Below are positions 24,073 through 27,727 of a stretch of DNA of 51,279 nucleotides, piece by piece. Numbering within the stretch: the first letter of the stretch is position 1; each line of letters begins with the position of its first letter. The position numbers and the translations under genes are program-made. The notes beneath the pieces were generated by a model, which made no database searches, had not been told where the DNA came from, and worked only from the letters and a program-made list of their open reading frames with translations. The stretch comes from Chromera velia (taxonomy: Eukaryota): NCBI GenBank assembly GCA_018398765.1, contig JAHBMJ010000287.1, forward strand, positions 1 to 51,279. The letters run 5' to 3'.

Positions 24073-27000
24073 TCAGCAACACCCGCACATCTGTTCCAGA
24101 GGCCCGCTGCCGTCCGGCTTCACTCTCAAGAGGAACCTCAGCCTGCTCATTCGTTCCATTTCCGAGAGCAGAGGGTGGCCCTTGAACAGGTTCACCCCGG
24201 CATCGAAGCTGCGTGCATGGTTGATGGCCAACGCATTGTCAAGCAAACGAGAGGGACACACGCAGAGAGAGGAGGTGAATGAAGAGAAGGGGGATCGGAC
24301 TGGGCGTGCGAAGGAAAACCGAAGAAGAAAGAACGAGGAACCGCAAAGATCTCAGAAACTTCCATGTGAAATTACTACACGAGCTGAAAAGAGATGAAAG
24401 ACGAAAGGGCTCAAGGAGACTCTATAAAAGCTTCATCGACTCTCGCAAAGAGTAGAGGCGGCGTAGACATACTCGGTGCAACCAAAATGCGCATACACAC
24501 ACAGCACACCCCATGCAGCCCGCTGACATCGGAATGCGGTGGTCAGGCACAGCGATGTGCAGCTGGAAGGATGCGCAGACGCTGTGTAGGGCGCAGATGT
24601 AAACCTGAGCGCATGCATAAGGATTTCAAGGAAGAGAGTGAGAGAGAGATTCAAAGATAGTCGGACAGACAGAGCACATTATCACCATGTCGTTCTACAA
24701 GGGTCTCGGAGCGATGGCCGGAGCCCATCGGAAACGAGGTGGTGTCAACGCACGTCTTGCGCGTACATGACGCTGCATGCTTTGACTTTTAAGACTTATG
24801 CCGAAGCAAAAGCTCATCATCCAATTGCTTCAAAAAAGAAAGGCCTTTCCTTTCTTGTTGGAATGAATCCCTACCTCCGCATGCACTCACTCAATGACAA
24901 AAATTAAGAAAAGAAGGAAATCAATCGGAACAACGAAAGAAGAACACAATTGAACAGTAATCACGACACTCACCGATGACGACTGGATGTCAGTCTCTGA
25001 AAAGGAAAGAAACCAGAAACGGCGAAAAGTGACGCGACGTAGAAAAATTCCGGAACACTTTCACACTTTTTTGAAAATGAGAGGCAGGACGCGAAGAGAG
25101 TGAACGAAAAAAAAGGAAAGAAACAAGGAATGAGAGTCAAGACAAAAGGACCCACCCACCTGTGACGCAGACCTCCCTCCTATAGTCTGGACCCGCACTC
25201 TGAGAGGCCGCTCCCCTCCCTGAAGTTCTACAGGAGGGGGGCTGCCGGCTGTTTCCTTCCCCTCCTTCGCTCCTTCAGCTTCTTTCTTTGCACTCGCACC
25301 GCTGCTGGGCTGTGCAGCTGCGAGTGTCTCGTCCCCCTCTTCGTATGGTTTGACGACGATGCGGAATTTGAGATCGTCCTCTTCATCTTCTTCCTCGTTC
25401 TCATAGGTGATCTGACAAGAAAGAAAGAAAGAGTAACAACAGAGGAGAGGAGAAACACCCCGAAGGGATGCCAAGAATCTCTCATGTCGATGCATGACTG
25501 ACACAAACGAAGTCTTTGATTCAGGTCCCCTCTTCCCTCGCGCTTTGGAAAGCAGCTCCCTTGCAAGACGGATCTGCCTCGGTGCCATGTGAAAAGACGG
25601 GATTGTTGAACTCCGTCCGTTTCCTCTTGTACTAAAAAGACGGACGGTACTGTGCTTTTCTCCTTTCTCTCTCTTTCCGTTTTTTCTCGGGACAGATATT
25701 GAAGCAGATACGCAGACAAAGAGGCATCCACACGCTCAAGCAGAAAGACTGGCTACAGATAGAAACGAAGGACATGAAATCCTTCAGAGAATGAACACGA
25801 CCGGCAGTCAATGAAAAAAGGTCTAGCAACCATGGGCCCACCACACCCATGCACCTTGAGCATTGAGGACGAGGCGGCAGCTGTCGGAGAAGCGAAGAAA
25901 ATTTTTATGTTCTCCGGACGCCACCTGAACCAACAGAAGGAAGAACGAAGAAAGGAAGGAGCGTTTGGATTAATAACCTGGAGGATCATCCGACAACTCT
26001 CTTAATTTGAGAACTGCACCAGACAGATAGACAGGTGGGCGTGCAGATATACAAAGAGACGGAAAGCAGCCGAGCGAGATAGGCATCGAGCCATAGAGAC
26101 TGGAAAAGACGCTAAATGAAGTGACATTTGGGCCGACTAATGCGGCAACAGAGAGGAATACACGTTTCAATGGATCCACAGAAGGAAGAATGGCGAAGAC
26201 CATTTCCTCTTTCTTCTTTCCTCTCTGTTTCATTCGGAAAACAAGGAGAAGAACATTTCTCTCCTCCTTTCGCTTCGTTTTTCATTTCCGCTCTTTCGAA
26301 TAGCCGCGCCCAAGTACTTCTCTCTTTGCCCTTCCAAACAAGAGTATCGACGAAAAATAAAAAAAAACAGACTTGAAGTCTCCAACGTAGCTCTTGCAAG
26401 TGCCGTCCCCGATCTCGCACAGCTCCATCAGAGTGACACACAGAGACTCGACCTCCTCGGCAGAGGTGAAACGGAGCCCACCACTCTCTACCACCTCCAC
26501 ACCTGACTGTTGCACTGCCTTCACGTATGAAGACATCACGGGAGCGCTAACAAGGTGATGCAGATACAGTCCCTTGACGAAACTCTTCGGGCCCTCTGCG
26601 GGGTGGAGTCCCTCGGCTATTCTCTTCTTGTCAGGCTGCTTTTCCACACCCTCTGCTGCCAGGAAGAGCGTGCAGTCAGACAGGAGCACAGACCCAGCCA
26701 TGCAGCTTGACGACAGCCCGCACTTCACGGCGTCAATCGACGGCAGGAAGAGAAGACACCTAGAGAAAACCTGCAATGCATTTCACAGAGAGGACAAGAA
26801 CAAGGACAAGCAAGAGAGGTCCAAGAGAAGGAAGAGGAGATTCAGAATCAGAATGCAGGAGGGCACCCACCCAGGTCCACGTGGACAAGAGGAGGGGAGG
26901 CACGAAGAGAATGACCAGATCGATCGGGAGGGCCGAGCGGGAGTGGAAGAGAAGCACCTACGGACAGATCGTCGGATACATTCGTTAAGAACTTTTCTTT

Positions 27001-27108
27001 TCTTCCTTCTCACTGCAAGATCTTCATTCAAACGCTCCCTCCGGCAATCGCGCATCATCTATATATTCATAGCATTCCATTTCCTCAGAGGAAGCCAGAA
27101 GGAAAAAT

Positions 27109-27140
<32 letters not shown>

Positions 27141-27142
27141 AT

Positions 27143-27204
<62 letters not shown>

Positions 27205-27727
27205 CTCAGGGGTGTGGAGGAGAAGTTTTTCGAGACGGGACCTCCCGTCCATTTCCTGGTCTCCCTGCGGACTCCCCCCTCCTGCAGCACCCGCAGCTGC
27301 TGTGGACGGATGCGCGGGCAGCGAGGGCGTTTGTGCGATGGCCCATGAGGACACAGGGCGCAGGCAGGCAACGAACGAGTCGGTCAAAAATTGCTTGTCC
27401 AGGGATCTGCATATTCAAGCAAAGAAAAGAAGGGAAAGGAAACTGTATTGTAGGAGGACAAGGACAAGGTAAGACTGGAGGGATCAGCACAAGCGGCAGT
27501 TAATGAGGGTTGACATTGGGATCGCCTTCAGGCAGGTCTGGACTCAAAGAGACCGCCGCACAGCGATACGCGCACAAGCACGCGGAGAGAGAAGAAGAAA
27601 GAGGCGAGCGAAAGAAAGAAACGAAGGAAGGAAGGAAGGAAGGACGGACGGAACAAAGGCAGGAAGAAAGGAAATAAATAAAAAAGAAAGAAAGAAAGAA
27701 AGAAGGAAGGAAGGAAGAAAGGAATGA

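What the first reader, a model, noticed from the sequence alone, without database searches (positions are those of the whole stretch)
24073..27406. CobW/ZNG1 metallochaperone fused to F-box-like and MATH-like domains: candidate metal-sensing SCF adaptor
Seen: the frame does not stop after CobW_C (…[22 protein letters not shown]) and continues through five more phase-consistent exons (~360 aa). Across the exon 9/10 junction it reads [35 protein letters not shown], an F-box pattern (L..lP.e+...+l.fL...d.....l.s). Further on, YVGDFKWRPENIK…[10 protein letters not shown]…LRVRVQ…LRFLLRVK resembles the strand pattern of a MATH/TRAF beta-sandwich. Known: COG0523 GTPases are Zn/Co chaperones, F-boxes bind Skp1, and FBXL5 and plant BTS/HRZ couple a metal-binding domain to ubiquitination. 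Inference: this could be an undescribed GTP/Zn-gated E3 substrate adaptor. I am not aware of this architecture being characterised.
Basis: partly seen in the sequence, partly recalled or inferred. Interest (0 to 1): 0.88.

Follow-up and report, generated by a model that had tools for sequence, protein, structure and literature searches.

The report
Metal-chaperone GTPase fused to F-box adaptor
A spliced gene conserved in many unrelated protists joins a metal-chaperone GTPase to a predicted F-box and a predicted MATH/TRAF protein-gripping domain, so it likely lets the cell's metal-delivery machinery decide which proteins get tagged for destruction.

Summary
Observation confirmed and extended. 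The gene has 14 exons on the minus strand (31903-24073) and encodes 862 aa, matching a Chromera velia UniRef entry. Single spliced contigs run from the GTPase exons into the tail exons. Layout: uncharacterised N-terminal domain, intact COG0523 GTPase (CxCC, His-rich linker, CobW_C), F-box, MATH-like sandwich, terminal CxCC. A tail profile finds 91 cluster representatives; the fusion occurs in 12 named species of SAR, Haptista, Discoba and Opisthokonta. The tail folds confidently (pLDDT 88). Its eight-strand sandwich matches SPOP/USP7/SIAH/TRAF MATH domains (best Z 7.0, rmsd 3.3 A, 125 residues); its first helices match F-boxes and dock on Vitrella Skp1 in a model (0.69 vs 0.02 best control; a textbook pair, so likeness only). 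Against: Pfam calls neither domain in this protein, no Foldseek hit reaches E 0.001, and nothing here shows metal, substrate or ubiquitination. New: a second CxCC ends 15 of 16 aligned members. Best reading: an SCF substrate receptor gated by a GTP/metal chaperone module, working like FBXL5 but with a different sensor. Ten literature searches found no description, and the scan's own notes hold no earlier report of this fusion.

The parts
24073..31903 (-). Whole coding gene, 14 exons (high-low): 31903-31552, 31463-31318, 30838-30659, 30332-30274, 29971-29854, 29596-29452, 28964-28723, 28360-28149, 27406-27205, 26770-26373, 25924-25855, 25411-25160, 24604-24528, 24208-24073; 862 aa
   Evidence: GT-AG ends (junctions 4/5 and 9/10 set by hand), spliced contigs, matches P0001
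31634..31903 (-). Conserved N-terminal domain, aa 1-90; ubiquitin-like (beta-grasp) pattern suspected by eye, not established
   Evidence: Present in 13 of 16 aligned members; alignment; weak ubiquitin-clan Pfam hits in 2 of 12 members, E 0.028-0.18; no significant match to ubiquitin, PDB or named Atlas clusters
29526..31570 (-). COG0523/CobW GTPase domain, aa 112-309 (exons 1-6): Walker A GFLGSGKT (118-125), Walker B with Glu210, NKVD (284-287)
   Evidence: Pfam cobW E 6.4e-48; closest solved structure E. coli YjiA
30806..30817 (-). Metal-binding CxCC of the GTPase (C174, C176, C177)
   Evidence: Sequence; complete in 14 of 16 aligned members, the other two are N-terminally cut
28807..28899 (-). 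His-rich linker, 14 His in aa 356-386
   Evidence: Sequence; His-rich in most members
27361..28740 (-). CobW_C domain, aa 409-500 (exons 7-9)
   Evidence: Pfam CobW_C E 4.8e-15
26657..27240 (-). Predicted F-box, aa ~541-590, across the exon 9/10 junction
   Evidence: Helices in model; F-box chains at Z 3.4-4.6, rmsd 2.0-5.8 A; Skp1 interface at aa 541-577; Pfam F-box-like below cut-off in 3 of 96 aligned rows, none in this protein
26402..26620 (-). Conserved middle subdomain, aa ~603-675, with invariant H623; no fold assigned
   Evidence: Alignment; high pLDDT; barely covered by structure matches, not searched alone
24106..26407 (-). Predicted MATH/TRAF-like eight-strand sandwich, aa ~674-852 (exons 10-14), with a variable low-confidence loop near aa 735-770 and conserved H799, H808, D813-H814-R815, H829
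   Evidence: Eight strands in model; SPOP, USP7, SIAH, TRAF matches; conservation
24076..24087 (-). Second CxCC at the very C-terminus (C859, C861, C862)
   Evidence: Ends 15 of 16 aligned members, the 16th is a partial record; low pLDDT (about 50) in the model

Best explanation
This is one 862-residue protein of a family spread across protists, in which an intact COG0523 metal-chaperone GTPase is fused to a predicted F-box and a predicted MATH/TRAF domain, and it likely works as a substrate receptor of an SCF ubiquitin ligase whose activity would be switched by the metal and GTP state of the chaperone part. Shown: the spliced fusion, the intact GTPase and CxCC motifs, the His-rich linker, the conserved terminal CxCC, the wide distribution. 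Predicted: the F-box helices dock on Skp1 (about 0.8 that this happens in cells); the sandwich is a MATH/TRAF fold (about 0.85) and would grip a short peptide of the substrate, as in SPOP and SIAH (recalled function). Inferred: metal (zinc most likely, by family precedent) loaded on the GTPase CxCC, buffered by the His linker and perhaps handed to the terminal CxCC and the conserved histidines of the sandwich, would control substrate binding or the receptor's own stability, so that a regulator of metal use is degraded according to metal supply. The substrate and the direction of the switch are unknown.
For: One contig spans GTPase to tail exons. 91 representatives match the tail profile; 18 of 96 aligned rows also carry cobW, many other rows being fragments; 12 named species in four eukaryote supergroups. 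Tail model pLDDT 88.1, pTM 0.86. MATH/TRAF: wide search ranks 1-8, Z 5.0-6.1; second look best Z 7.0, rmsd 3.3 A over 125 residues of a 141-residue SPOP MATH chain; Foldseek top rows USP7 and SPOP, probability up to 0.99. F-box: 13 of 50 rows; canonical-looking F-box text in P0014 and P0016 with Pfam E 0.027 and 0.0015; Atlas F-box clusters at 0.85-0.88, a lead only. Skp1 model: score 0.69, best of 3 controls 0.02, runs agree in at least 74% of contacts, partner pLDDT at least 82; the mark was reached by 51 of 78 solved complexes and 2 of 108 mismatched pairs (eukaryotes: 71 of 105 and 2 of 126); contacts lie only in aa 541-577. The order F-box then peptide-binding domain is that of SCF receptors (established knowledge). 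[quoted passage not shown]
Against: Pfam finds no F-box or MATH in P0001 at E up to 10; F-box-like appears in only 3 of 96 rows, all below the curated cut-off, and MATH is not among the 25 of 31 families shown. No Foldseek match reaches E 0.001; all Z values are under 8, which the tool says may mean a common arrangement only; identity to solved MATH domains is 4-14%. F-box/Skp1 is a textbook pair that can pass from memory, the Skp1 was from Vitrella, and the tail chain had pLDDT 36 in that run because alignments were not used. The F-box text is degenerate in several members, such as P0002 and P0006. Some members have S or T for the Asn of NKxD. Related forms exist without the GTPase (P0046, P0108), so the tail does not always need it. 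No data here on metal, GTP hydrolysis, metal-dependent expression or substrates.
Confidence: 0.55

Rival explanations
1. It is mainly an ordinary metallochaperone: the MATH domain docks a client for metal delivery (as the WW domain may in Chlamydomonas CBP1/ZNG3), and the F-box serves only to turn the chaperone itself over or to park it on SCF.
For: All COG0523 motifs and CobW_C are intact. A CobW protein with an added protein-binding domain is known (PMC12891040, passages), and it is itself proteasome-degraded in zinc deficiency (PMC13368412).
Against: Self-turnover does not need an F-box kept in register with a peptide-binding domain across four supergroups; that order is the usual one of substrate receptors.
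Confidence: 0.2
2. Triage receptor: the GTPase part itself recognises unmetallated client enzymes, loads them when metal is available, and holds them for SCF ubiquitination when it is not.
For: COG0523 proteins bind client enzymes directly (ZNG1 with MetAP1; PMC10642216, passages and section 14); the GTPase motifs are as conserved as the tail; the F-box sits between two possible substrate-binding modules.
Against: No client identified; a MATH domain already offers a substrate site; no tree places the GTPase near a family with a known client.
Confidence: 0.15
3. The F-box is a relic that no longer joins SCF; the tail is a scaffold or membrane anchor, with the terminal cysteines lipidated rather than metal-bound.
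For: Weak F-box sequence signal; flexible cysteine-rich C-terminus, a common site of prenylation or palmitoylation (recalled); an F-box protein bound to a prenyltransferase is among the structure rows (6o60).
Against: The Skp1 model passes with contacts confined to the F-box. The tail keeps CxCC spacing while the middle residue changes (P0047) or a glycine is added after it (P0002, P0006), which fits a metal motif better than a fixed CaaX end.
Confidence: 0.08
4. The fusion is an annotation artefact joining two neighbouring genes.
For: The 9/10 and 4/5 joints are not in the joint tables because repeats were skipped; the runs are only guessed to be RNA and are contigs, not reads.
Against: Single contigs carry exons from both halves with exact length, and the same fusion occurs in 11 other named species.
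Confidence: 0.02

Closest known systems
FBXL5 (mammalian hemerythrin-F-box-LRR iron sensor) and plant BTS/HRZ hemerythrin RING ligases (PMC6381054, passages read)
   Same: Metal-binding module N-terminal to a ubiquitin-ligase module; in FBXL5 the same order sensor, F-box, substrate-binding domain.
   Different: The sensor here is a G3E GTPase with CxCC and His linker, not a di-iron hemerythrin; the substrate domain is MATH-like, not LRR; there is a terminal CxCC; function untested.
COG0523 / ZNG1, ZNG2, ZCRP-A, YjiA metallochaperone GTPases (PMC2770081 and PMC10642216, passages and one section read)
   Same: Walker A, Glu-type Walker B, NKxD, CxCC, His stretch, CobW_C.
   Different: About 90 aa added in front and 362 aa behind; prokaryotic relatives match only aa ~37-552 (80 loci kept); no curated NCBIfam equivalog cut-off is reached.
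Chlamydomonas CBP1/ZNG3, CobW-CobW_C-WW (PMC12891040 passages; PMC13368412 abstract, section 9, passages)
   Same: Algal CobW protein with an added protein-interaction domain and a regulatory role; linked to zinc-dependent proteasomal degradation.
   Different: WW instead of F-box plus MATH; reported as restricted to some green algae; it is a target of degradation, with no ligase module described in what I read.
SPOP/BPM (MATH-BTB, Cul3), SIAH (RING plus TRAF-like domain), USP7 and TRAF MATH domains
   Same: Same sandwich topology in the model; in those proteins the domain binds substrate peptides (entry titles).
   Different: 4-14% identity; joined to an F-box (Cul1 route) instead of BTB or RING; carries conserved histidines and a CxCC tail.

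Membership tests
COG0523 (G3E GTPase) | Walker A, Walker B with glutamate, NKxD | tested here: met
   GFLGSGKT 118-125, E210, NKVD 284-287; Pfam cobW 163 bits vs cut-off 20.7; features per PMC2770081
COG0523 (G3E GTPase) | CxCC between the Walker motifs | tested here: met
   C174-M-C176-C177
COG0523 (G3E GTPase) | CobW_C domain; His stretch (optional) | tested here: met
   CobW_C 409-500, E 4.8e-15; 14 His in 356-386
COG0523 (G3E GTPase) | GTP hydrolysis and metal binding or transfer | not testable with these tools
   Needs biochemistry
ZNG1 / named COG0523 subfamilies | Orthology to ZNG1 in a tree of the GTPase domain | not tested
   Script machine lost. Prokaryotic equivalogs YjiA, ZigA, CobW score 168, 147, 142 bits against cut-offs 361, 600, 332
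F-box proteins | Match to the Pfam F-box profiles at the curated cut-off | tested here: not met
   No hit in P0001; 3 of 96 rows below cut-off, best 18.7 vs 24.3 bits. Not decisive: F-box prediction from sequence is described as confounded by degeneracy in a related alveolate (PMC11570480, passages)
F-box proteins | Short helical F-box fold | tested here: met
   In a model only: helices at tail 2-40 align to F-box chains in 13 of 50 rows, Z 3.4-4.6; unrelated small helical domains score alike, so this is weak alone
F-box proteins | F-box helices dock on Skp1 (predicted) | tested here: met
   Model score 0.69 vs best control 0.02, contacts at aa 541-577; supports, does not show; textbook pair, Vitrella Skp1
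F-box proteins | Assembly into SCF and ubiquitination of a substrate in cells | not testable with these tools
   Needs pull-down and ubiquitination assay
MATH/TRAF domains | Eight-strand antiparallel sandwich of TRAF topology | tested here: met
   Eight strands at tail 138-309; 125 of 141 SPOP MATH residues aligned, Z 7.0, rmsd 3.3 A; ranks 1-8 of 48,161 chains; Z under 8 noted
MATH/TRAF domains | Match to the Pfam MATH profile | tested here: not met
   No hit in P0001; not among the 25 of 31 families shown for 96 rows. Filed as MATH-like fold, not as Pfam MATH
MATH/TRAF domains | Open peptide-binding groove that binds a substrate motif | not tested
   Model coordinates could not be inspected
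FBXL5 / BTS-HRZ metal-sensing ligases | Hemerythrin di-iron sensor domain | tested here: not met
   No hemerythrin family among the Pfam hits of P0001; not a member, at most works alike
Ubiquitin-like (beta-grasp) domains | Beta-grasp fold or profile match for aa 1-90 | tested here: inconclusive

The most novel reading that the evidence does not exclude
A metalation quality-control ligase: a GTP-driven metallochaperone that is also its own SCF receptor, passing metal from its GTPase CxCC either to a client or to a second CxCC/histidine site on the MATH domain, and sending clients that cannot be metallated to the proteasome. It would be an old eukaryotic metal-sparing device kept in marine and freshwater protists of four supergroups.
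Probability: 0.25. Interest if true: 0.92.

Novelty: new variant of a known kind. Interest (0 to 1): 0.8.

Why it matters
Known metal-sensing ubiquitin ligases use hemerythrin domains and iron. This family would tie the COG0523 GTPases, whose best-studied eukaryotic members deliver zinc, directly to SCF. It gives a concrete, testable candidate for how protists and algae degrade proteins according to zinc (or cobalt or iron) supply, a step seen in Chlamydomonas without a named ligase in the parts of the paper I read. It also adds an F-box plus MATH pairing that my searches did not find in print, hidden under the database label 'CobW C-terminal domain-containing protein'.

Tried and rejected
No whole genome was held, so paralogs and the organism's own Skp1 could not be searched; Chromera Skp1 was not among the named rows of the 120 best of 4033 Skp1 hits, so the Vitrella protein P0155 stood in. 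Single-sequence folding of the full protein failed (pLDDT 34.5) and was not used. Single exons gave no Pfam hit except one cobW exon (1 of 7). Sequence search of the PDB with the two-sequence tail profile gave only a chance apolipoprotein hit, E 0.42; the full-length profile gave GTPases and His-rich chance hits, no F-box or MATH. No run was on record as RNA (no RNA holder listed; six guessed). Viral contigs: 24 pattern matches, none related; phage records: no match to a tail fragment; viral folds: TRAF/MATH-type rows on top but none at E 0.001. The ubiquitin-like reading of aa 1-90 was not confirmed. The middle subdomain was not folded or searched alone. No tree could be built (script machine lost), so vertical descent versus transfer is open. 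Literature: 0 papers for COG0523+F-box+fusion, F-box+MATH domain+CobW, F-box-MATH; one unrelated paper for F-box+MATH domain+protist+domain architecture (listing only); none of the 15 listed of 27 for CobW/SCF/Skp1/zinc/protist contains CobW (listing only); some searches gave background papers. Earlier scan notes: none by words or place; three prokaryotic COG0523 notes by sequence had no bearing.
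Full report
Gene and transcript. The finding covers the last six exons of a 14-exon minus-strand gene in a microsatellite-rich eukaryotic window. A search with exon 10 returned one protein, P0001, 862 aa, 100% identical over the query, named by UniRef and EukProt as Chromera velia Cvel_16377, 'CobW C-terminal domain-containing protein'. 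My exon list sums to 2589 nt = 862 codons plus stop; this was done by hand, with junctions 4/5 and 9/10 corrected, because the script machine failed. Six public runs, all only guessed to be RNA and held as contigs, contain the stretch; I laid all six, in two calls of four. They show CT..AC joints at 11 of the 13 introns; the two missing ones lie beside skipped repeats. One 2580-nt contig (run X2) runs from 32044 to 24528 and equals the summed exons minus a 14-nt strain difference in the leader. That difference removes an upstream in-frame ATG at 31912, which favours the start at 31903. The exon 13/14 joint is in all four runs of each call. The gene is therefore one spliced unit; the contigs say nothing on expression level.

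GTPase half. Pfam gives cobW at 112-309 and CobW_C at 409-500. Walker A, the Walker B glutamate, NKVD and the CxCC that define COG0523 (PMC2770081, passages) are intact, and a 14-His linker lies between the two domains. The closest solved structure by sequence is YjiA.

A conserved family. The tail (aa 535-862) found a second full-length fusion, P0002, 33% identical over 79%. A profile of the two tails found 91 representatives at E up to 0.001 among 1.84 billion proteins. Many are fragments; 18 of 96 aligned rows carry cobW and 21 CobW_C. I looked up 20 of the 91 clusters. Named carriers of the fusion, besides Chromera: Biecheleria cincta, Chattonella subsalsa, Nemacystus decipiens, Chrysoparadoxa australica, Phaeothamnion confervicola, Aphanomyces stellatus, Aplanochytrium stocchinoi, Bolivina argentea, Prymnesium parvum, Namystynia karyoxenos and Amoebidium parasiticum (domain content). 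NCBI taxonomy places five checked names in Alveolata, Rhizaria, Haptista, Discoba and Opisthokonta; the placing of the others is from my own knowledge. Transcriptome entries, Bolivina above all, may hold prey or symbiont sequence. None of the names I saw was a plant, animal, fungus or apicomplexan, but 71 clusters were not looked up. The 80 prokaryotic loci kept matched no residue beyond 552 (weak test).

Tail structure. With 96 sequences AlphaFold2 gave pLDDT 88.1 and pTM 0.86 for aa 541-862, with a helical start, a middle subdomain and eight strands at 138-309. Foldseek ranks USP7 TRAF and SPOP MATH first (E 0.0024-0.01, probability up to 0.99; none at E 0.001). The wide search over 48,161 chains puts MATH/TRAF/SIAH chains at ranks 1-8 (Z 5.0-6.1, rmsd 3.2-4.3 A, 109-128 aligned) and F-box chains, by entry title, in 13 of 50 rows (FBXL17, FBXL2, Cdc4, FBXL5, cyclin F, FBH1, Skp2 and others; Z 3.4-4.6 over 40-59 residues). 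The second look reaches Z 7.0, rmsd 3.3 A over 125 of 141 SPOP residues. These Z values are below 8, where the tool warns of common arrangements; the case rests on coverage of nearly the whole MATH domain and on one superfamily filling the top ranks. Sequence evidence is weaker: no F-box or MATH Pfam hit in P0001, F-box-like below cut-off in 3 of 96 rows but at the right place, Atlas F-box clusters at 0.85-0.88 as a lead. A paper on Toxoplasma F-box proteins notes that such domains are hard to call from sequence (PMC11570480, passages).

Skp1 test. Tail plus Vitrella Skp1 (P0155) scored 0.69 in ESMFold2 against a best control of 0.02; runs agreed in at least 74% of contacts, partner pLDDT at least 82; the mark was reached by 51 of 78 solved complexes and 2 of 108 mismatched pairs (71 of 105 and 2 of 126 for eukaryotes). 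Alignments were not used, the tail chain's own pLDDT was 36, the Skp1 is a stand-in, and F-box/Skp1 complexes are well represented among solved structures, so the pass shows likeness to an F-box, not binding in Chromera.

(1) The protein ends in CGCC, and 15 of 16 aligned members end in CxCC or CxCC plus glycine (the exception is a partial record); a distant relative has CWCC. This repeats the spacing of the GTPase metal motif. (2) H623 is invariant, and H808, D813-H814-R815 and H829 are kept in 15 of 16, H799 in 14 of 16. Together they suggest a second metal site; lipidation of the tail is the rival. (3) About 90 conserved residues precede the GTPase in 13 of 16 members and look ubiquitin-like by eye, but tests were inconclusive. 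(4) Derived forms exist: P0046 has the N-terminal stretch, the sandwich and CGCC but no GTPase; P0032, P0108 and P0109 keep a decayed CobW_C and the tail domains but, where the sequence was read, lack the terminal CxCC.

Mechanism. The anatomy reads sensor, F-box, peptide-binding domain, the order found in FBXL5 (PMC6381054, passages). I commit to an SCF substrate receptor gated by the metal and nucleotide state of the COG0523 module (0.55), zinc being the most likely metal by family precedent (PMC10642216, passages and section 14), though an iron-responsive algal COG0523 subfamily is also reported (PMC7883536, passages). Rivals: chaperone whose F-box only controls itself (0.2), client triage by the GTPase (0.15), relic F-box with a lipid anchor (0.08), artefact (0.02). 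The nearest biological precedent is Chlamydomonas CBP1/ZNG3, a CobW-WW protein that binds CCM1/CIA5, both degraded by the proteasome when zinc is short (PMC12891040, passages; PMC13368412, abstract, section 9, passages).

Novelty. Ten searches of the open library found no paper describing CobW with an F-box or F-box with MATH; subscription papers, the 2021 COG0523 review and one relevant supplement could not be seen. It is a member of COG0523, a probable F-box protein with a MATH-like fold, and not a member of the hemerythrin ligases. I rate it a new variant of a known kind (metal-coupled ubiquitin ligase), interest 0.8, with a one-in-four chance of being a new kind of metalation quality control.

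Noticed in passing
window 24179-24557 (intron 13): Runs X1-X4 hold a contig through the last intron at depth 13-20 beside the spliced joint at 45-52. Read through, it stops at 24422-24424 and would lose the last sandwich strands and the CxCC tail. May be pre-mRNA or DNA; contig depth is not expression.
   Followed up: partly
window 32442-33410 (+): Head-to-head neighbour, 322 aa single ORF with a hydrophobic signal-like start, a likely membrane segment and two CxxC pairs (rubredoxin-like by eye); no Pfam hit at E 0.05; covered by contigs in 4 of 4 runs. A possible metal protein about 300-400 bp from this gene's leader.
   Followed up: partly
window 31908 and 31981: Runs X1-X4 come from a strain that differs from the window by scattered substitutions and, in the leader, deletions of 10 and 4 nt; X5 and X6 show no substitutions.
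   Followed up: partly
window 22263-22687 (+): Two tandem copies of 207 nt, 82% alike, each with coding-like text in different frames.
   Followed up: no
window 23056-23284: AT-rich 229-bp stretch bounded by 30-nt inverted repeats, 93% complementary; could be a small non-autonomous transposon.
   Followed up: no
proteins P0046 (cluster P0104-P0107), P0032/P0108/P0109, P0040, P0093, P0016: Derived architectures: N-terminal domain plus MATH-like domain plus CGCC without GTPase (P0046); decayed CobW_C plus tail without terminal CxCC (P0032, P0109, P0040); Aphanomyces form without the N-terminal domain (P0016). Sources mostly unnamed.
   Followed up: partly
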